64,000 nucleotides of DNA from Candidatus Wolfebacteria bacterium GW2011_GWE2_44_13 (GCA_001000675.1 LCHW01000001.1:68013-132012), one strand, 5' to 3'. Positions 56,806 to 64,000 are shown, counted from the stretch's first letter. Notes: a model not told the origin generated them from the letters alone. A program made the numbers and translations.

Positions 56806-59800
56806 ATGAGCATAGTATTTAAAAAGCTTTCTATCGTTGCTCTCTCGCTCGCCCTTTTGGCAGGCGTTGTTTCAACTCCGGTTGCAAACGGCGCTACGAA
56901 CGAGGAATTACAGGCACAGATCTCTGCTATGACAGCGCAGATCAATGCCCTCCTCGCTCAGCTTGCTGGAACTCCGGCGACAGTAGCAACAACCCCAGCA
57001 ATGTCTTCATACACGTTTACCCGCAACCTCACTGTTGGGTCAACTGGTGCAGATGTTATGGAACTCCAGAAGTTCCTCGTTTCCTCAGGGCACTTGGTCC
57101 TTGCAAATCCAACCAACTATTTTGGTAACATGACCAAGGCAGCGTTGGCAAAGTTCCAGGCAGCTAATGGCATTTCGCCAGCAGTTGGATACTTCGGACC
57201 ACTCACCCGTACTTCAGTGAACGGAATGATGACCCCAGTAACTCCAGTAACTCCAGTTACTCCAGTAACTCCAGTAACTCCAGTAACTCCAGTTGTAACG
57301 TCTGGCGCAGTATCTCTTGCTTCTACTAACCCAGCAGCAGGATACATCGTAGCAGGACAGGCAGGAGCACGTTTGGCAGCTATCCAGTTCTCAGGAGCAG
57401 GATCAGTAACCAGCCTTGTTCTTAAGCGCACTGGTCTTTCGACCAATGACGTATTGACCAATGTCTACTTGTATGATGGAAATACTCGCATCACCGATGC
57501 AGCTTCTATCAATGCAGAAGGCGTAATCACTTTCAACAATCCTTCAGGGCTGTTCACAGCTCCTAAGACCGTTGAAGTTCGTGCAGATGTAACCTCGACC
57601 GCTACTGGACAGACCACAGTTGCAATTGAAGTTTCTTCATACACTATGTCAGGTGGAACTGCGACTGCAGTTACCGGCATAGTTGGAAACACGATGCAGA
57701 TGTCAACCGCAGCTTTGGCCACGGTTACTATGCAGACCAATAACCAAAATCCGAACAACACTACTTCCTTGAGCGTTAATGCTGGTACAGTTAACCAGAA
57801 CGTTTGGGATGTAACCTTGAACGTCGGAACTCGTGCAGTATCGTTGAAGGGACTTACATTTAAATATGTAGGATCAGCTTCATCTGATGCAGTAGGAAAC
57901 CTTGGCGTTTACGTTGACGGAGTAAAGGTTGGTTCAACTGCAACCGTAAATGCCATGGGCCTTGTTGCCTTTGACTTTACTGCAGCCCCAGTAACTCTTA
58001 CGACAGGAGCACGCACTATTCAGTTGCGCGGTGACTTCGTAAAGGGTTCGAACCGATCTGCTCAGTTCTACGTACAGAACTTGGCTGACTACATGATTGA
58101 AGATACGCAGGTTATGGGAGCATTTATTTCCCCAACCAGCGGAGCAAACGTCTATGGTTACAACTTTAACATCCAGTCAGGATCTATCGTTGTAAATCAG
58201 GATCAAACCTACTCAGCTACTCAGGTAGTTGGTGGATCTTCAAACGTTAACCTTGGTAAGTTTACCTTCAAGGCATATGGTGAAGATGTAAAAATCGAAA
58301 CCTTGGTCTTGACCCCGTCAGGAACTTTCACTGGATGGACTTCTGGTGCAAATATCCAGAATGTAACCTTGTATGTAAATGGTGCAGCTGTTGGTTCTTC
58401 ACAGAACTGGAGCCCAACCACTTCAGCAACACTTACTTTCAATCCAGGTGCAAACATGATCATTCCAGCTGCAGGAGTTTCTACTCTTGAAGTACGTGGA
58501 GATCTCCGCGATGGAGCTGGTGTGAACTACACTGGAGGAACCGTACAGGTTGACGTAACTTCCTTTGTTGGACGAGGACAGCAGTCACAGGCAACTGTTA
58601 CAAGCGCCTCTGCAACAGGACGAAACTTGACCATTGGTTCAGCCACAGTTAGCTTCTCAAAGACTGGTGGATTCTTGGGTTCAACTGTTACTCCAAATGC
58701 AAACGCAAAGATTGGTTCATTTACACTTTCAAACTCAAACTATGAGGATGTACGCGTAACGAACTTGTCTGTTGGCTTGCTCTTTGGTGCAGGTATGACC
58801 ATCACCAACGTTTCAAACCTTCGCGTATCTGACTCAGCAACTATCGTTGCTCAGCCAACCGCAGACAGCAACTTCTCTATGGATGTTGTTGTTCCTATGA
58901 ACTCAACTAAGGTATTCGAGATCACTGCTGACCTCGGTTCAACTGCCTCTACAACGGCAACTGTTACCGCAAATGCAACCTCTTCATACCGTGGCGTAAG
59001 TTCAGGAGTTTCTACAACTGCAGGTGCAGCTGGTGTAGCTATGACAGCTAACACCGCTACTCTTGTAGCAGCAGATGTTACCAAGTTGTCTTCATCAGCT
59101 CCTTCTCAACTTGTTGTTGGAGGAACTGTTATGCCAACCGTTATTTATAACGTAAAGTCATCAACTGCTCCAGTAACAATCACGGAATTGACCTTTGACG
59201 CCGCTACTTCAACCGATGCAATCACTGCTATTAAGGTTGGTGGTGTTACAAAGACAATCACTGCTTTGACTGGAAACGTTGTCACTGGTTTGAACATTGC
59301 TGTTCCAGCTGGTGCGTCAGGATTGAACATTCCAGTTGATGTTACTTTTGGAACTGTAAACACAAATGGTGGAATCGCTTCGCAGCCTACTGCGGTCGAC
59401 ACTATTACGCTTACTGCCGTTAAGTACACCAGTGGAAACACTACTGATACCGTGACCACAGCTTCTACTACGCTTGTTTCTAACGCTATGCAGCTTGTTG
59501 CTTCTAAGCCAAGCTTGACCGTTAATGGAACACAGCAGGGTGGATTGTTGCTTGGTTCTGAGAATAAGATTGGTGAAGTTACCGTTATTGCAGATGCAAA
59601 GGGTGACATCAAGTTGAATCTCTTGACATTCAATATTGGATACTCAGGATTCTCAACTGGTCCAGCTCTTTCAGGTGTTCGCATCGCAGATGGTTCAACA
59701 ACTATCAGCGGAACAACTGCTACGACAACAACGTCAACGACCTCACCAGTTATTACTGTTGACTTCGGTGATGCCGCAACCAGCAGCGATGGATACTCTA

Positions 59801-60003
59801 TCCCAGCTGGAACCTCGAAGACCTTTAGCCTCTTCGCAACCAACACTGGTGGCGTAGTATCTTCAGGTGCAACTGCTGCAGTTTCTGCACAGGTGCAAGG
59901 TGCTGCATTGTTTAAGTGGGATGATGTAAACGGAGGTGGGCTCGGTTTGACCGCTGCTAACATCTACAACTTCCCAACACAGAGCTACTCAGTACGACAA
60001 TAA
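56806..60003 (+). CDS. Giant cell-surface protein: signal peptide, coiled coil, peptidoglycan-binding domain (PG_binding_1-like), (TPV)x7 linker, and roughly 850 aa of Thr/Ser/Gly/Val/Ala-rich beta-rich repeats (S-layer/adhesin-like)
   Basis: Probable start at the ATG at 56806 (MSIVFKKLSIVALSLALLAG, a signal peptide); the track ORF begins at the TTG at 56779. FTRNLTVGSTGADVMELQKFL....MTKAALAKFQAANGISPAVGYFGPLT matches the PG-binding domain. Nine-bp tandem repeats actccagta x7 sit at 57235-57297. Confidence 0.6.
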   Translation: MSIVFKKLSIVALSLALLAGVVSTPVANGATNEELQAQISAMTAQINALLAQLAGTPATVATTPAMSSYTFTRNLTVGSTGADVMELQKFLVSSGHLVLANPTNYFGNMTKAALAKFQAANGISPAVGYFGPLTRTSVNGMMTPVTPVTPVTPVTPVTPVTPVVTSGAVSLASTNPAAGYIVAGQAGARLAAIQFSGAGSVTSLVLKRTGLSTNDVLTNVYLYDGNTRITDAASINAEGVITFNNPSGLFTAPKTVEVRADVTSTATGQTTVAIEVSSYTMSGGTATAVTGIVGNTMQMSTAALATVTMQTNNQNPNNTTSLSVNAGTVNQNVWDVTLNVGTRAVSLKGLTFKYVGSASSDAVGNLGVYVDGVKVGSTATVNAMGLVAFDFTAAPVTLTTGARTIQLRGDFVKGSNRSAQFYVQNLADYMIEDTQVMGAFISPTSGANVYGYNFNIQSGSIVVNQDQTYSATQVVGGSSNVNLGKFTFKAYGEDVKIETLVLTPSGTFTGWTSGANIQNVTLYVNGAAVGSSQNWSPTTSATLTFNPGANMIIPAAGVSTLEVRGDLRDGAGVNYTGGTVQVDVTSFVGRGQQSQATVTSASATGRNLTIGSATVSFSKTGGFLGSTVTPNANAKIGSFTLSNSNYEDVRVTNLSVGLLFGAGMTITNVSNLRVSDSATIVAQPTADSNFSMDVVVPMNSTKVFEITADLGSTASTTATVTANATSSYRGVSSGVSTTAGAAGVAMTANTATLVAADVTKLSSSAPSQLVVGGTVMPTVIYNVKSSTAPVTITELTFDAATSTDAITAIKVGGVTKTITALTGNVVTGLNIAVPAGASGLNIPVDVTFGTVNTNGGIASQPTAVDTITLTAVKYTSGNTTDTVTTASTTLVSNAMQLVASKPSLTVNGTQQGGLLLGSENKIGEVTVIADAKGDIKLNLLTFNIGYSGFSTGPALSGVRIADGSTTISGTTATTTTSTTSPVITVDFGDAATSSDGYSIPAGTSKTFSLFATNTGGVVSSGATAAVSAQVQGAALFKWDDVNGGGLGLTAANIYNFPTQSYSVRQ

Positions 60004-60275
60004 GCTAACGCTTACTGTTTGATTGAATTCTCTACCCTTGAGACACTTCGGTGGCTCAAGGGAAAACATAAAATTTTTGTATCGGTCTCACTACTCCTGT
60101 AATAGGTGTGTGTGACTCGGCTAGCCTCCTCTTGTCTTTCCGCCCAAGGCGGACAGGTAGGGGAGGGTGGTCCGAGAAAAGCTGATGCAATAACAAAAAC
60201 ATTGAATCTTTTATCGAAAAGGATAAAAGAATAAAAATTATTGGTCCGTTGATTCACGCAAGCCTTCGAGACCTG

Positions 60276-60300
60276 CCATTCCCGTGAAAACGGGAATCCA
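60276..60300. repeat. R1 hairpin (ccattcccgtgaaaacgggaatcca)
   Basis: Match to the R1 consensus with a GAAA loop. Confidence 0.7.
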
Positions 60301-60460
60301 GAGCCCTTAAAGGGAATCGCGATAAACCAATCAAATCCCATGTATTACATTCACCAGGTGTGAATGGAAAACGAAAAAATTTCATGGTCGACGCAAGACA
60401 TTTTCATGACTGCGTAGGCAGGCTCATGTGAATGATGACCATGATCAATAAAATACTTTC

Positions 60461-60490
60461 AAAAGCCCCGCACTTAGTGCGGGGCTTTTG
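60461..60490. terminator. Bidirectional rho-independent terminator
   Basis: aaaagccccgcac-tta-gtgcggggctttt, with an A-run and a T-run on either side. Confidence 0.6.
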
Positions 60491-60535
60491 TTTCACCAGT
60501 CCGTAGCTTTATGCGTAGGATGGTTTGTGTTTTTT

Positions 60536-60600
60536 GGGGGTGCCCGCCGTACGGCGGGCACCCCCCTCATGTATTGTCATTCCCGCGCAGGCGGGAATCC
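60536..60600. repeat. GC-rich 14-bp-stem hairpin (gggggtgcccgccg-tac-ggcgggcaccccc) followed by R1 hairpin 60575-60600
   Basis: Perfect inverted repeat, then ttgtcattcccgcgcaggcgggaatcc immediately upstream of the GIY-YIG gene. Confidence 0.65.
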
Positions 60601-60616
60601 AGTACAATAAAATAAT

Positions 60617-60902
60617 GGACCGATACTACTATGTGTATTTATTGGCGAGCAGGAAAAATGGAACTCTTTACGTAGGGGTTACTAATAATTTAAAAAGAAG
60701 AATAGCTGAACATAAGGATGGATGGGTTGGAGGATTTACAAATGATTACGGCGTAAATAGATTGGTATATTTTGAGCAAACAACAGACGTACGAAGTGCT
60801 ATAGCGCGTGAGAAGGCTATAAAGAAATGGAATAGACGATGGAAGATAGATTTAATTGAACAAGAGAATAAAGAATGGAATGATTTGTTTGAAATAATAT
60901 GA
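60617..60902 (+). CDS. GIY-YIG nuclease family protein (small URI-domain endonuclease, COG2827-like)
   Basis: YYVYLLASRKNGTLYVGVTNNLKRRIAEHK has the GIY-YIG core (YxYxL...GxxYxGxT.NL.RR...H). 95 aa. Confidence 0.85.
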
Positions 60903-60917
60903 AATGAATTCTAGCGC

Positions 60918-60948
60918 ATTGTCATTCCCGTGAAAACGGGAATCCAGA
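60918..60948. repeat. R1 hairpin (ttgtcattcccgtgaaaacgggaatccagag) immediately downstream of the GIY-YIG gene
   Basis: Match to the R1 consensus. Confidence 0.7.
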
Positions 60949-61000
60949 GTGCGAGTTCTTTGTATTGTACGGCATCTTTTTGCAGTATCGTCTTTACATT

Positions 61001-61038
61001 TTGTTACAATATTTCGCGACCGCGAAATATTGTAACAA
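61001..61038. repeat. 38-bp near-perfect palindrome ttgttacaatatttcgcg-ac-cgcgaaatattgtaacaa (copy 1)
   Basis: The 18-bp arms are exact reverse complements. An identical copy lies at 61788-61825. An extra half-site gattgttacaaaaatc is at about 61074. Confidence 0.85.
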
Positions 61039-61163
61039 TCGTTTATTTATAATTGTGTAATTAGATAATAACGAAAAGATTGTTACAAAAATCTTTCTGA
61101 ATTAGTATGCAATACGGGGTAGTTATGTGATATACTTTTAACAGTTTTTATCACACGCATTTT

Positions 61164-61748
61164 ATGTATACCGACGACATATTAGGCATGATAGAAGAGT
61201 TTGATGATATCACCACGGGTGGCCTCTTTTCTTTGTTATTTTCGTCTTATTCCGATCTTCGTAAAAGAGGTAATGATTGGTTGCCTCCAGATGAGTTTAA
61301 AGCCGCGCAGGAGCGCTCAGAGCGCGATATACGGCGCAAGCGCTACCAACGGATGGTAAATTTAGTCTGCTATTTAAAGCGACAAGGCCTTGTTGAGCAA
61401 AAGGAAAATAGTATTTTAAAGTTAACGGAAAAGGGGCTTTTGCGATTACAGAAAAACGCGACTGTTTCAAGATACGTTCCCCTTTCTAAGGGATATAAAA
61501 CAGAAGACGATCATCTAAAGGTTGTTATTTTTGATGTGCCTGAGAAGCGGAGAAAGCATAGGGAATGGCTTCGCTTCAGTTTGCAGAATCTTGGTTTCAA
61601 GTTGCTTCAAAAGAGTGTTTGGATTGGAAAAACAAAATTACCACAAGAGTTTTTTGATCAATTACATGGGTGGGAATTATTACCGCATGTACATATTTTT
61701 GCGGTGCAAGAAACTGGATCAATTGGATTTGAAGATAGGGAGCATTAA
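61164..61748 (+). CDS. PaaX-like transcriptional regulator (N-terminal winged helix + C-terminal Cas2/VapD-like fold)
   Basis: wHTH-like VNLVCYLKRQGLVEQKENSILKLTEKGLLRL. C-terminal LKVVIFDVPEKRRKHREWLRFSLQNLGFKLLQKSVWIGK resembles the PaaX C-domain / Cas2-like beta-alpha-beta-beta pattern. Confidence 0.45.
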   Translation: MYTDDILGMIEEFDDITTGGLFSLLFSSYSDLRKRGNDWLPPDEFKAAQERSERDIRRKRYQRMVNLVCYLKRQGLVEQKENSILKLTEKGLLRLQKNATVSRYVPLSKGYKTEDDHLKVVIFDVPEKRRKHREWLRFSLQNLGFKLLQKSVWIGKTKLPQEFFDQLHGWELLPHVHIFAVQETGSIGFEDREH

Positions 61749-61787
61749 TGATACCCGAGTATTTTTTGAAAGAATGCTATTATTTAT

Positions 61788-61825
61788 TTGTTACAATATT
61801 TCGCGACCGCGAAATATTGTAACAA
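61788..61825. repeat. 38-bp palindrome, copy 2 (identical to 61001-61038)
   Basis: Exact sequence identity with copy 1. Together they bracket the PaaX-like gene. Confidence 0.85.
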
Positions 61826-62071
61826 AATGATAAATAGATGTGATATTTTAAAAATAGAAAAAGCGATATTTGTATACTGCTAATAAGGTTATGTATAAAA
61901 AGTTGCAGAATATTTTCTGTGTGTTAAAATGAATTCACTTGCGTCGCGTTATGTTCACTTTGTTTCGATATGATCGATGAATATGATCGACAATAATTAC
62001 ATAGCATAATATACATCATATTCTTACGAGCGGGGTCTTTGACACCCGTTTTTATTTTTATAAAAACTGAT

Positions 62072-62692
62072 ATGGAAGAATTAGAAAAAAACGATATTGC
62101 TCAACAATATTTTGAGAAAGATGCGGAGATTTTAGGAGATAACGGCGTACACCCGAAGGATGTTAGTGAGCAGGGAGGTGGAGTGATAAAGAGCAGCTAC
62201 TGGAAATTTATCGGTGGTTTTTTTGCGCTATTACTTGTTGGGTTTATCGGCATACCGTTTATTGGAAATTATGTGCAGGAGCAAGAAGATAAGGCACAAG
62301 AAGAAAAGTTTGCCGCTGGTGTGCAGTATATGCAAGAAATGCAGGAACGTTTGAAAAACGATACTGATGGTGGCGCAACCGCACAGGAAACGTTGGCGTT
62401 ATTTACAGCTGCGCTTAAAAAAGGAGATATTGAGCAAGCAAACAAATATTTTGTTATTGAGCCAAAAGATCGACAGGAGGGCTTGATTGATGTTTTAAAA
62501 AATATACAGGAATCCGGAAGGTTTGAAGAGTTTGTGGGGTATGTGGAAGACGTAGATTTTATGTCCAACAGCTCTAGCGGATCCGTTGCTATTTTTAGGA
62601 ACATAAATAAAGAAGGCATAGCTGATGTGTCTCTAGAAATAACCAAAGATAATTATTCTACTGTATGGAAAATAGAAGGACTTATGTTTTAA
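62072..62692 (+). CDS. Membrane-anchored hypothetical protein
   Basis: Start MEELEKND. One TM (FIGGFFALLLVGFIGIPFIG). The C-terminal soluble domain is unassigned. Confidence 0.4.
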   Translation: MEELEKNDIAQQYFEKDAEILGDNGVHPKDVSEQGGGVIKSSYWKFIGGFFALLLVGFIGIPFIGNYVQEQEDKAQEEKFAAGVQYMQEMQERLKNDTDGGATAQETLALFTAALKKGDIEQANKYFVIEPKDRQEGLIDVLKNIQESGRFEEFVGYVEDVDFMSNSSSGSVAIFRNINKEGIADVSLEITKDNYSTVWKIEGLMF

Positions 62693-64000
62693 GCGCTGCA
62701 TTTGTTGCAGCGTTTCTTTTTAGTGCGTTGCCTACATATGCATATCAAGTAAATACACATGCCTATTTAACGAGCGAGGCTATTGAATTTTATAACAAGA
62801 CCGCCAAAGAAAATACAATTTCCAGTAACTGGAAGCGCTTTATGATTGACGGGGCTATTAATGAAGATAATGACCCGCGTTACTTGAATCATTTCTATGA
62901 TCCTATTAATAACGAAGGGCTTGATGACGGGTGGTTTGGTGGGCAATCGGTAAAAGAGTGGGCAAATGATAGCGAACATCAAGGGAAGCTGGGATATACG
63001 CTACTCTCTGATTCATTGCTTGCGTCGGTTGATAAGCAAAAGATTGAACAGTTTTATCCGACGTCGGACTTTACGTGGGATGCGGGTATTCGCTACTGGC
63101 TTAATGGGGATAAAGAAATGGCTATGGTGGTGCTGGGACACATATTGCATTTAGTGGAAGATATGGGTGTACCGGAGCACACGCGCAACAATAGCCATTC
63201 GGACGGGAGTGAGTATGAGGAGTACGCTTCTCGGTACAACGCGAACACTCCGGATGAGCAGTTGCGAACACGAACAGGCGATAAGCCCTTTTTTATTGAA
63301 GGCTCACTCGGCGATTATTTTGACGGGTTGGCTAAATATTCGAATAAATATTTTTATAGTCCGGGGTCAATTAGTACATATGGATATCCTGAATTGGATT
63401 ATCGCACTGCGGAGGTAAAAGATCGTGTTTATTTTATTTCTAATAAGGATGACGAGGGAAATAAATATTATGTTGCTGCAAAAAAGAACATCGCTAATAT
63501 TGCAATAGGCAATTTTGATGTTTCTGTTGCTGATGATGCGATTAAGGAATCCTATTGGAACCTCCTCTCCGTGCGCACGGTGCGCTATAGTGCAGGAGTG
63601 ATTGATTTGTTTTTTAGAGATGTGGAGCGAAGAAGTGGCGACGCGAGCTTCTTAAAGGAAAAGCAAACAAACGCGACTATTTTAGGAAGTGTATCAACGC
63701 TGACGAGCTCACTATGGAGTGGTATGAAAAGTGTTGCTGTAAAAACAGGAACGTTTTTCGGAAATGTGTTTAGTGCTATTGGAGATGGGCTTGTTTCTGC
63801 GGGAAGTTTTGTAGGTGGGCTATTTACTAACGATAGTGGCTTAACCGAAGTGGACGGTGTTGATGTAAATGATTCCGCAAGTTTTGACGTAAATACTGGC
63901 GATGCTGCATCTGCACCTGCAGCACCAACTGCAGAGGCAATCAAGAAAGATGCGCTCGCAAAAAAGAATGCAGAAATTGCTGCACTGGAAATGCAACTCG
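62665..64000 (+). CDS. Secreted zinc-dependent phospholipase C / S1-P1 nuclease superfamily protein (5' part; the ORF runs off the window end)
   Basis: Not in the ORF track because there is no in-window stop. ATG at 62665 (MENRRTYVLSAAFVAAFLFSALPTYA signal peptide) overlaps the upstream gene end by 28 nt in another frame. HLVEDMGVPEHTRN fits the zinc-PLC signature H-Y-x-[GT]-D-[LIVM]-[DNS]-x-P-x-H-[PA]-x-N closely. NTHAYLTSEAI resembles the N-terminal zinc-ligand region. More than 440 codons are open. Confidence 0.5.
   Translation, partial: MENRRTYVLSAAFVAAFLFSALPTYAYQVNTHAYLTSEAIEFYNKTAKENTISSNWKRFMIDGAINEDNDPRYLNHFYDPINNEGLDDGWFGGQSVKEWANDSEHQGKLGYTLLSDSLLASVDKQKIEQFYPTSDFTWDAGIRYWLNGDKEMAMVVLGHILHLVEDMGVPEHTRNNSHSDGSEYEEYASRYNANTPDEQLRTRTGDKPFFIEGSLGDYFDGLAKYSNKYFYSPGSISTYGYPELDYRTAEVKDRVYFISNKDDEGNKYYVAAKKNIANIAIGNFDVSVADDAIKESYWNLLSVRTVRYSAGVIDLFFRDVERRSGDASFLKEKQTNATILGSVSTLTSSLWSGMKSVAVKTGTFFGNVFSAIGDGLVSAGSFVGGLFTNDSGLTEVDGVDVNDSASFDVNTGDAASAPAAPTAEAIKKDALAKKNAEIAALEMQL

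What the first reader, a model, noticed from the sequence alone, without database searches (positions are those of the whole stretch)
60999..61830. PaaX-like regulator gene exactly bracketed by two identical 38-bp palindromes (cassette-like)
ttgttacaatatttcgcgaccgcgaaatattgtaacaa occurs at 61001-61038 and 61788-61825, with an extra half-site at about 61074. These flank a 194-aa wHTH + Cas2/VapD-like-fold protein. The palindromes may be this regulator's operators (autoregulation plus a second site) or recombination sites delimiting a mobile cassette. Half-site TTGTTACAAT fits a dimeric wHTH operator.
Basis: seen in the sequence. Interest (0 to 1): 0.6.

Follow-up and report, generated by a model that had tools for sequence, protein, structure and literature searches.

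The report
Paired operators bracketing a mini-PaaX regulator
A small DNA-binding protein gene of a groundwater Wolfebacteria (candidate phyla radiation) genome sits between two identical 38-bp palindromes, and the same arrangement around related genes in eleven other lineages marks these as most likely the protein's own binding sites, not a mobile cassette or a common repeat.

Summary
Identical 38-bp palindromes (18 + AC + 18) lie at 61001-61038 and 61788-61825, with none expected by chance. They flank a 194-aa gene (61164-61748) whose product has a winged-helix domain plus a Cas2-like domain (Pfam PaaX_M).

In all 12 lineages examined (33-100% identity) the gene has a dyad-symmetric site before its start and another after its stop. 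The sites share a central CG-RY-CG and outer inverted half-sites about 32 bp apart. This is close to the published E. coli PaaX operator, TGATTC-N27-GAATCA. Half-sites differ between lineages. In distant lineages the stretch between centre and half-sites is not palindromic and folds poorly, which favours a double-stranded protein site over a hairpin.

In five Wolfebacteria-type loci the gene keeps the same neighbours, so no mobility is seen. An 893-kb contig holds only five pattern-matching sites, so this is not a REP.

Best reading: paired cognate operators of a mini-PaaX autoregulator, plus a few orphan sites. Three things remain unexplained: the strict concerted, mirror-symmetric evolution of the sites, the universal downstream copy, and the invariant Cas2-type polar residues. 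Binding itself is untested.

The parts
61001..61038 (.). Upstream 38-bp dyad-symmetric site: TTGTTA half-site, T-rich stretch, CGCG-AC-CGCG centre and mirror image. Its dyad is 144 bp before the start codon.
   Evidence: Exact match with 0 expected by chance. Orthologous loci have a site of the same architecture but different sequence at the same place.
61080..61088 (+). Extra single half-site TTGTTACAA, 43-51 nt upstream of the -10-like box. It may be an auxiliary half-site; the evidence is weak.
   Evidence: An extra tandem half-site also precedes the upstream site in L037. It is not clearly conserved in L005.
61126..61136 (+). Extended -10-like box (TG-A-TATACT within TGTGATATACT), the likely promoter of the regulator gene. 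This is inferred.
   Evidence: The box is conserved in the four aligned orthologous upstream regions. The simple two-hexamer scan did not call it.
61164..61748 (+). Gene for a 194-aa winged-helix plus Cas2-like protein (a 'mini-PaaX' without the PaaX C-terminal domain).
   Evidence: Pfam PaaX_M 52.4 bits against a cut-off of 24. AlphaFold2 model with mean pLDDT 80: helices 2-12 and 18-26, long helix 42-73, wing 77-87, then a beta-alpha-beta-beta-alpha-beta domain at 114-181. Fold hits are PaaX, Lrp, Cas2 and MarR. The family has 5579 clusters at E<=1e-3.
61788..61825 (.). Downstream 38-bp dyad-symmetric site, identical to the upstream one. Its dyad is 58 bp after the stop codon and about 120 bp before the -10 box of the next transcription unit.
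   Evidence: A downstream site is present in 11 of 11 lineages whose 3' flank is available.
61920..62059 (+). Neighbouring conserved unit: extended -10 box (TG-T-TAAAAT), about 115 nt starting CACTTGCGTCG, then an intrinsic terminator. It may be controlled from the downstream site, but that link is not shown.
   Evidence: Conserved in L005, L013 and L036. No Rfam family matched.

Best explanation
The two palindromes are most likely the binding sites (operators) of the protein encoded between them. This protein is a winged-helix plus Cas2-like 'mini-PaaX'.

Inferred mechanism: a symmetric dimer places its two winged helices on the outer TTGTTA / TAACAA hexamers, about 32 bp (three helical turns) apart. 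The Cas2-like dimer core would then lie over the conserved central CG-RY-CG. One site sits at or just upstream of the gene's promoter and the other just past its stop codon. Occupied sites would therefore bracket the gene and give negative autoregulation. This would most plausibly work through cooperative binding with a DNA loop of about 0.75 kb, and in some lineages through control of the next promoter as well. A few further identical sites elsewhere in the genome would form a small regulon.

Shown: the sites, their architecture, their universal pairing with the gene family, the DNA-binding fold, the low copy number and the conserved synteny. Inferred: binding itself, its stoichiometry, looping and the sign of regulation.
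For: 1. Pairing. In 12 of 12 lineages (33-100% identity) a CG-RY-CG-centred dyad site lies 31-144 bp before the start. In all 11 lineages whose 3' flank is available, a second one lies 22-115 bp after the stop. Among 136 long ORFs in the same loci, only family genes (plus one antisense ORF overlapping a family gene) have such sites on both sides.

2. Geometry. TTGTTA-N26-TAACAA puts the hexamer centres 32 bp apart. The published E. coli PaaX site TGATTC-N27-GAATCA gives 33 bp (PMC9493321). The K-12 paaZ-paaA spacer holds TGATTC-N27-GAATCG.

3. Duplex site rather than hairpin. In L019, L023 and L039 only the outer half-sites and the centre are symmetric, and those sites fold weakly: -5.7 to -14.6 kcal/mol with z from -0.3 to -5.9, against -22.5 kcal/mol and z -9.5 for the window site. 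In several lineages the symmetry runs through the centre with no loop at all (CGATCG).

4. Half-sites track the protein. Lineages with TTACTAA-type half-sites share the helix motif (K/R/Q)FYS(L/T)L(N/S), while TTGTT-type lineages share YQR..(N/S)L. This correlation is confounded by phylogeny.

6. In short-spacer lineages the upstream site abuts or overlaps -10-like boxes read by eye in the printed sequences (L019, L039, L021).

7. Low copy number. There are 4 + 1 pattern-matching sites on an 893-kb contig. One orphan site lies in the same intergenic neighbourhood (3' of a pyrEF-like gene) in two genomes, each with that genome's own sequence variant, although the local order of repeat modules differs.
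Against: No binding data exist.

In the window the upstream site ends 92 nt before the -10-like box, so it cannot simply occlude RNA polymerase.

The downstream site has no promoter to control in L021, where it is convergent with the RNase J gene. The same holds for the orphan sites in convergent spacers.

A downstream copy in every lineage is unusual for an autoregulator.

All copies within a genome are identical at all 36 arm positions. Differences between sites of one genome are mirror-symmetric (L030, L037, and variants A and B). Recognition by one dimer does not explain this.

The Cas2-type polar residues D124, E127, R133, R137, Q149, S151 and W153 are 97-100% invariant in 169 family representatives. 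This hints at a function beyond dimerisation.
Confidence: 0.6

Rival explanations
1. REP/RAYT-like or homing-like selfish module. The Cas2-like domain would be an active nuclease or strand-transferase. It would recognise the palindromes, possibly as hairpins or cruciforms, cut at the CG-RY-CG centre, and so copy or homogenise the sites and occasionally move the gene together with its two flanking sites.
For: The gene is flanked by its own lineage-specific palindromes and there are dispersed orphan copies. This is the layout described for RAYT genes and REPs (PMC2817692). Evolution of all copies within a genome is concerted, and the arms show strict compensatory change: 13 of 18 positions, 99.4% complementary. 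A Cas2-type Asp and other polar residues are invariant. Gene neighbourhoods differ completely between distant lineages. In L030 two sites bracket a different small gene next to a transposase gene.
Against: Only five sites were found on an 893-kb contig, whereas REPs usually exceed 100 copies (PMC2817692). The protein gave no Pfam hit to a Y1/HUH transposase family. Synteny is conserved in five Wolfebacteria-type loci with no empty site. No target-site duplication was seen by eye. Sites in distant lineages do not form good hairpins. No family member was found in viral contigs. A chromosomal double-strand nuclease acting on its own flanks would be hazardous.
Confidence: 0.12
2. The sites act as nucleic-acid structures, not protein sites. 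They would be RNA hairpins that terminate, stabilise or mark the mRNA for processing on both sides of the gene, or DNA cruciforms.
For: The window site folds at -22.5 kcal/mol, z -9.5. The upstream copy is followed by a T-rich stretch and was called terminator-like. Arm changes are compensatory. Orphan copies lie after the 3' ends of genes such as smc, tsaD and a pyrEF-like gene.
Against: The window's real terminators belong to another class, with an A-run, a GC-rich stem and a T-run. The downstream copy has no T-tail. The symmetry extends into a 0-2 nt centre that cannot pair in a hairpin, yet the centre is the most conserved part (CG-RY-CG). Distant family sites have unpaired internal stretches and weak folds. 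The upstream copy lies upstream of the conserved -10-like box, so it is probably not in the mRNA. A structural role also does not explain why the sites accompany this gene family.
Confidence: 0.08
3. Site-specific chromosome-organising protein. The few dispersed sites would be bridging or loading sites (parS- or matS-like) rather than promoters' operators, and the flanking pair would simply be the strongest local cluster.
For: The sites are few, dispersed and identical (at 422, 570, 639 and 826 kb of the 893-kb contig). Several lie in convergent spacers that lack promoters. Orphan sites sit next to smc and near parB, and one family gene lies directly upstream of parA-parB.
Against: Neighbour associations are few and could be chance. 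No known partition or condensin-loader domain was found apart from one weak MksE hit in 1 of 22 members. The upstream site position relative to the promoter in most lineages fits ordinary repression.
Confidence: 0.08
4. Recombination sites for an unlinked recombinase, giving inversion or excision of the gene segment. The asymmetric AC/GT central dinucleotide would set the orientation, as in serine-recombinase crossover sites.
For: There is a 2-bp asymmetric core between long inverted arms. The relative orientation of the core differs between genomes: AC/AC in the window, GT/AC in L005 and L013, AC/GT in L036.
Against: The gene has the same orientation relative to its neighbours in every Wolfebacteria-type locus. 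No recombinase gene lies within 10 kb. Other lineages have fully symmetric cores (CGATCG, CGGCCG), which could not set a direction. Orphan single sites exist.
Confidence: 0.03

Closest known systems
E. coli / Pseudomonas PaaX repressor and its operators (TGATTC-N27-GAATCA)
   Same: Both have an N-terminal winged helix followed by a Cas2-like central domain. E. coli PaaX is the best Foldseek hit. In both, the operator consists of two inverted hexamers about three helical turns apart: 32 bp here and 33 bp in E. coli (PMC9493321). PaaX represses its own promoter (PMC9493321).
   Different: This protein has no PaaX_C domain (194 aa against 316 aa), and no PaaX N-domain or PaaX_C Pfam hit was found. 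TIGR02277 scores 18 bits against a cut-off of 264. There are no paa genes nearby, so the effector is unlikely to be phenylacetyl-CoA. The site has a conserved CG-RY-CG centre and is often a perfect palindrome. A second site after the stop codon is always present. The Cas2-like domain keeps Cas2-type motifs (FD.PE ... R ... R ... Q.SVW) that E. coli PaaX appears to lack by inspection.
RAYT transposases and REP/REPIN sequences
   Same: The gene is flanked by palindromes of the same class as dispersed copies in the genome, the palindrome sequence is specific to the lineage, and the arms show compensatory change (PMC2817692, PMC3116915).
   Different: There are five copies instead of more than 100. 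The protein is not a Y1/HUH enzyme by Pfam. No GTAG or CGTC end tags were seen. Positions are conserved between genomes. Distant family sites are not hairpins.
Repressors that loop DNA between operators on either side of a gene or promoter (lambda CI OL-OR, DeoR, GalR, LacI)
   Same: Two or more identical or similar operators lie a few hundred bp apart, so bound oligomers can be bridged. This comparison comes from general knowledge and was not tested here.
   Different: Here the loop would enclose exactly the regulator's own coding sequence, and this arrangement is conserved across a whole family. Oligomerisation beyond a dimer is not shown.
Lrp/AsnC (feast/famine) regulators
   Same: They share the architecture of a winged helix plus a ferredoxin-like beta-alpha-beta-beta-alpha-beta domain, and Lrp/AsnC structures are among the top fold matches.
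   Different: No AsnC-type Pfam hit was found. The C-terminal domain is Cas2-like by sequence. The site geometry is also different.
CRISPR Cas2
   Same: The C-terminal domain matches Cas2 models just under threshold (TIGR01573 22.5 bits against 24.5; 14 of 22 members hit PF09827 at E<=0.01). An invariant Asp sits at the end of the first strand. Some database entries are even named Cas2.
   Different: The domain is fused to a winged helix. No cas1 gene appears among the called genes within 10 kb, and no repeat array was seen in 58000-64000. The two 'repeats' flank a gene, not spacers.

Membership tests
PaaX (phenylacetate-pathway repressor, TIGR02277) | Full-length match to the equivalog model above its cut-off | tested here: not met
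   18.3 bits against a cut-off of 264.55. The family profile aligns only the H3-wing segment to E. coli PaaX.
PaaX (phenylacetate-pathway repressor, TIGR02277) | Central Cas2-like domain (PF20803 PaaX_M) | tested here: met
   52.4 bits against a cut-off of 24. All 22 aligned family members hit this model.
PaaX (phenylacetate-pathway repressor, TIGR02277) | PaaX N-terminal and C-terminal (PaaX_C) Pfam domains | tested here: not met
   No such hits at E<=1 or among the 22 members. The protein ends about 10 residues after the Cas2-like domain.
PaaX (phenylacetate-pathway repressor, TIGR02277) | Operator made of inverted hexamers about 33 bp apart | tested here: met
   TTGTTA-N26-TAACAA in the window. 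Outer half-sites lie 13-20 bp from the dyad in most lineages. The comparison values are from PMC9493321. Binding itself is not tested.
PaaX (phenylacetate-pathway repressor, TIGR02277) | Linked paa catabolic genes and a phenylacetyl-CoA effector | tested here: not met
   No paa genes within +/-10 kb; the neighbours are surface-protein, pilin-like and LTD genes. The effector cannot be tested with these tools.
REP / RAYT system | High copy number of the palindrome (usually more than 100 per genome) | tested here: not met
   5 pattern-matching sites on an 893-kb contig and 2 in the 64-kb window. Imperfect copies outside the search pattern would be missed.
REP / RAYT system | The associated gene encodes a Y1 (IS200/IS605-type, HUH) transposase | tested here: not met
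   Pfam, NCBIfam and PADLOC give only PaaX_M, Cas2 and winged-helix hits.
REP / RAYT system | The gene is flanked by palindromes of the class that is dispersed in the genome | tested here: met
Intrinsic (Rho-independent) terminator | GC-rich stem followed by a U-tract | tested here: inconclusive
   The upstream copy passes the loose scan. The downstream copy has no T-run. The stems are AT-rich with only a CGCG top. The genome's clear terminators are of another class.
Integron gene cassette (attC) | An integron integrase nearby; imperfect attC sites with extrahelical bases; variable cassette content | tested here: not met
   No integrase within +/-10 kb. The palindromes are perfect. Content and position are conserved in orthologous loci.
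CRISPR-Cas adaptation module (Cas2) | Cas2 model above cut-off, with an adjacent cas1 gene and CRISPR array | tested here: not met
   TIGR01573 scores 22.5 bits against 24.5. No cas1 among the called genes. No repeat array in 58000-64000.

The most novel reading that the evidence does not exclude
The winged-helix plus Cas2-like proteins of Patescibacteria may not be plain repressors. They could be site-specific DNA-processing (or RNA-processing) enzymes. The winged helices would dock on the outer half-sites, and the invariant Cas2-type acidic/basic site would act on the CG-RY-CG centre. This activity would drive the observed concerted evolution and perfect symmetry of all copies, making gene plus flanking sites a low-copy, domesticated selfish module. 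That would be a Cas2-based analogue of the RAYT/REP relationship.
Probability: 0.1. Interest if true: 0.85.

Novelty: new variant of a known kind. Interest (0 to 1): 0.5.

Why it matters
Patescibacteria (the candidate phyla radiation) have tiny genomes, few recognisable regulators and almost no experimentally defined regulatory sites. This analysis gives a concrete, testable protein-site pair for a large family: 5579 clusters at E<=1e-3 and 789 at E<=1e-30. It also gives a defined site architecture (half-site, CG-RY-CG, half-site) and a rule that the gene is bracketed by two sites. The family links PaaX-type repressors to Cas2 by sequence motifs, so it is a good place to ask what the Cas2 fold does when fused to a DNA-binding domain. 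The strict concerted, mirror-symmetric evolution of a handful of dispersed sites is an unusual pattern, and its mechanism is open.

Tried and rejected
- Rfam at E<=1 over 59900-62300 gave only chance hits (miRNA precursors on the palindrome, leader families on a terminator).
- A PDB sequence search with the C-terminal domain alone returned only spurious hits. The family profile against PDB gave only weak winged-helix and Cas2 hits.
- Literature searches for PaaX with candidate phyla radiation, for Cas2-like with PaaX, and for Patescibacteria with winged helix and palindrome found no description of this family or its sites.
- A scan of viral contigs found no family member.
- A search for a paralogue near the orphan sites found none in any fetched locus. 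A profile search showed no second family member on the 608-kb or 893-kb contigs among the 120 best hits listed. A second regulator for the 'variant B' site is therefore neither shown nor excluded.
- I tested whether the roughly 200-aa gene next to the LTD gene in L023 is homologous to the window's 206-aa neighbour. There is no BLASTP similarity, so the apparent shared link to an LTD operon is weak.
- Orthologues of the orphan-site neighbours (smc, rpsP, the pyrEF-like gene, parB, tsaD, ftsW) are not in the window, so conservation of orphan sites in this genome could not be tested.
- I considered an inversion centred on the orphan palindrome between L015 and L018. The repeat modules are reordered but not inverted, so this was rejected.
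- I considered whether the TTGTTACAAT half-site is itself an extended -10 promoter. This applies only to the window's variant and not to the orthologues, so it is treated as coincidence.

Full report
OBSERVATION. The 38-mer TTGTTACAATATTTCGCGACCGCGAAATATTGTAACAA occurs at 61001-61038 and 61788-61825, with no match in 100 dinucleotide-preserving shuffles. Each copy is an 18 + 2 + 18 palindrome with an asymmetric AC centre. Between the copies lies one ORF, 61164-61748 (+), of 194 aa. The extra half-site is at 61080-61088. No other member of this palindrome class is in the 64-kb window. The window's other long palindromes are ordinary bidirectional terminators with an A-run, a GC-rich stem and a T-run. 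The same protein sequence is found on Rifle groundwater contigs and is named by NCBI 'Transcriptional regulator, PaaX family [Candidatus Wolfebacteria bacterium GW2011_GWE2_44...]'.

THE PROTEIN. Pfam gives PaaX_M, the 'PaaX central Cas2-like domain', at 52 bits over residues 119-185. Hits to Cas2 and to winged-helix families fall below threshold. NCBIfam gives cas2 at 22.5 bits against a cut-off of 24.5. The PaaX equivalog scores only 18 bits against a cut-off of 264.

The family is large. A profile search finds 5579 clusters (at 50% identity) with E<=1e-3 and 789 with E<=1e-30, almost all of them 180-205 aa. Named members are from Wolfebacteria, Sungbacteria, Minisyncoccia and 'Patescibacteria group'. 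In 169 representatives G91, D124, R133 and S151 are 100% invariant, and E127, R137, Q149, W153 and L140 are at least 97% conserved. The recognition-helix positions are variable.

E. coli PaaX aligns to the family profile only over the H3-wing segment. By inspection, at the place of the FD.PE ... Q.SVW motifs it reads LLLLSEGLD ... ALAPSLMAS. The protein is therefore PaaX-like in architecture and closer to Cas2 in motifs. It is not a true PaaX: it has no PaaX_C domain and no paa genes nearby.

COMPARATIVE ANATOMY OF THE SITES. Orthologues at 71-73% identity (P0004, P0003, P0002) sit in the same gene order. That order is a roughly 1100-aa surface protein gene, a repeat-rich spacer, this gene, a spacer, a roughly 200-aa gene and a giant LTD-domain gene. 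P0007 (47% identity) lies on a 1.1-kb contig and shares only the downstream RNA-like unit.

Each orthologous locus has a 38-bp palindrome at the same two places, but with a different sequence:
- TTGTTGTTATCTTTTGCG|GT in L005
- TTGTTATACCTTTTCGCG|GT in L013
- TTGTTGTAGTTTTTCGCG|GT in L011 (the contig ends where the second copy should start)
- AATTACAACGGTTGGACG|GT in L036
.

Seven more distant lineages (33-40% identity) have unrelated neighbours but also carry one dyad site before the start and one after the stop. A uniform centre-out analysis shows the common plan. There is a central CG-RY-CG: CGATCG in most lineages, and CGACCG, CGGTCG or CGGCCG in Wolfebacteria. In most lineages the outer inverted half-sites lie about 13-20 bp from the dyad; in L021 they lie closer, at 5-14 bp.

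As a control, among 136 long ORFs of the same loci, only family genes (plus one antisense ORF overlapping a family gene) have such a site on both sides.

DUPLEX SITE OR HAIRPIN. In L019, L023 and L039 the stretch between centre and half-sites is not symmetric. Those sites fold weakly, at -5.7 to -14.6 kcal/mol and z -0.3 to -5.9, against -22.5 kcal/mol and z -9.5 for the window site. In several lineages the symmetry runs straight through the centre with a 0-nt 'loop'. The centre cannot pair in a hairpin, yet it is the most conserved element. These features point to recognition of duplex DNA by a symmetric protein.

The hexamer centres are 32 bp apart in the window. The published E. coli PaaX operator, TGATTC-N27-GAATCA, gives 33 bp (PMC9493321). 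I found TGATTC-N27-GAATCG in the K-12 paaZ-paaA spacer. Lineages with TTACTAA-type half-sites (P0009, P0010, P0011, P0012) share the H3 motif (K/R/Q)FYS(L/T)L(N/S). The TTGTT lineages share YQR..(N/S)L. This fits direct read-out but is confounded by relatedness.

In short-spacer lineages the upstream site abuts or overlaps -10-like boxes, as read by eye in the printed sequences. In Wolfebacteria it lies 32-92 nt upstream of a conserved extended -10-like box.

REP OR CASSETTE. A degenerate pattern, TTGTT-N6-TTTYGCG-RY-CGCRAAA-N6-AACAA, was scanned over 185,579 species genomes and hit only Wolfebacteria. A scan of JGI metagenomes added little.

One 893-kb contig, the genome of P0004, holds exactly five matches. 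Two flank the gene. One lies between the smc 3' end and rpsP. One lies in a convergent spacer 3' of a pyrEF-like gene. One, a second variant (TTGTTATGATTTTT..), lies 10 nt after the tsaD stop codon. No family paralogue lies near these orphan sites.

The site 3' of the pyrEF-like gene is also present in another genome (RIFOXYB1_FULL_54_12). There it has exactly the window's sequence, although the local repeat modules are ordered differently.

So orphan sites exist, but the copy number is about 5. REPs usually exceed 100 (PMC2817692). No recombinase, integrase or transposase lies within 10 kb of the window gene. No target duplication was seen by eye and no empty site was found. The mobile-cassette reading therefore has no support in this clade. 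The completely different neighbourhoods in distant lineages do not exclude ancient movement.

WHAT REMAINS ODD.
1. The downstream copy is universal. In L021 it faces a convergent gene, so it has no promoter to control there.
2. All copies within a genome are identical, while orthologous positions in other genomes carry that genome's own variant. This is concerted evolution.
3. Across 10 distinct Wolfebacteria-type sites, 13 of 18 arm positions changed on both sides, 99.4% of cells remain complementary, and 0 of 500 shuffles reach these values.
4. Differences between two sites of one genome are also mirror-symmetric. This holds for L030 sites a and b, and for variants A and B in the P0004 genome. 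In L037 the upstream and downstream sites share the half-site and centre but differ at all nine intermediate positions, and each is still perfect.
5. The Cas2-type polar constellation is invariant.

A single symmetric dimer does not explain point 4. Three explanations are open: quasi-palindrome template-switch correction (a known mutational process, named here from general knowledge), a cruciform or hairpin requirement, or paralogous regulators.

MECHANISM PROPOSED. The two palindromes are cognate operators of a mini-PaaX dimer. The winged helices sit on the outer hexamers and the Cas2-like core lies over the CG-RY-CG centre. The pair brackets the gene and gives negative autoregulation, probably cooperative through a loop of about 0.75 kb, with a handful of further sites elsewhere. 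Confidence is about 0.6, and somewhat higher for the narrower claim that these are the protein's own binding sites.

The rivals are a REP/RAYT-like or nuclease-driven selfish module (0.12), RNA or DNA structural elements (0.08), chromosome-organising sites (0.08) and recombination sites (0.03).

NOVELTY. The Pfam domain and the 'PaaX family' label exist. I found no description of this family's sites or of the bracketing rule. It is a new variant of a known kind, namely a repressor with its operators. It carries a residual chance of about 0.1 of being something more unusual.

Noticed in passing
window 60080-60495 (+); also L005 4300-4770, L013 1430-1895, L011 3890-4395: A conserved non-coding element of about 420 nt lies between the surface-protein gene and the regulator cassette and ends in an intrinsic terminator (60460-60490). 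RNAalifold on 4 sequences predicts 101 pairs, 25 of them with compensatory changes. No Rfam family matched apart from chance leader hits on the terminator. It is a candidate new structured RNA of Wolfebacteria, and it carries variable insertions of small hairpin repeats.
   Followed up: partly
window 61920-62059 (+); L005 5784, L013 3052, L036 926: A conserved unit of about 115 nt has an extended -10 box, a 5' end CACTTGCGTCG and a strong terminator. It lies between the downstream palindrome and the next gene. There is no Rfam hit and only one covarying pair. Its 5' CTTGCGTCG is complementary to CGACGCAAG in the upstream non-coding element, which may be chance.
   Followed up: partly
window 60575-60949: A 95-aa GIY-YIG nuclease gene (60615-60902; Pfam E 6.8e-17) is present only in this genome at this position and is absent from L005, L013 and L011. 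It is itself flanked by copies of the hairpin repeat TGTCATTCCCG...CGGGAATCC (60575-60604 and 60920-60949, with a third copy at 60274-60303). This looks like a separate insertion associated with that repeat family.
   Followed up: no
L030 41-78 and 452-489: In another metagenomic contig, two Wolfebacteria-type palindromes differ by one mirror-symmetric substitution. They bracket a 61-aa Cys-rich ORF rather than a PaaX_M gene, and lie next to a 438-aa transposase-like gene. Bracketing by paired sites is therefore not exclusive to the regulator gene.
   Followed up: no
L017 2613-2650, L018 5912-5949, L016 1092-1129, L038 392-2968: Orphan palindromes in the P0004 genome lie just after smc, two genes from a parB-like gene, and between tsaD and ftsW. 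The Sungbacteria family member (P0023) sits directly upstream of parA-parB, with its downstream site in the 100-nt spacer. A link to chromosome segregation or division genes is possible, or this may be coincidence.
   Followed up: no
L015 6760-7260 versus L018 5630-6145: The spacer 3' of the pyrEF-like gene contains the same set of small modules in two genomes, but in a different order. The modules are an ATGTACG-type hairpin, a poly-C tract, a TGTCATT...GGAATCC hairpin and the palindrome. These intergenic repeat modules seem to be shuffled over time.
   Followed up: partly
window 7298, 19347, 20718, 28594, 41057, 47586, 49214, 50875, 56176: Many perfect 26-36-bp palindromes have an A-run, a GC-rich stem and a T-run. 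They look like bidirectional intrinsic terminators and form a class distinct from the finding.
   Followed up: no
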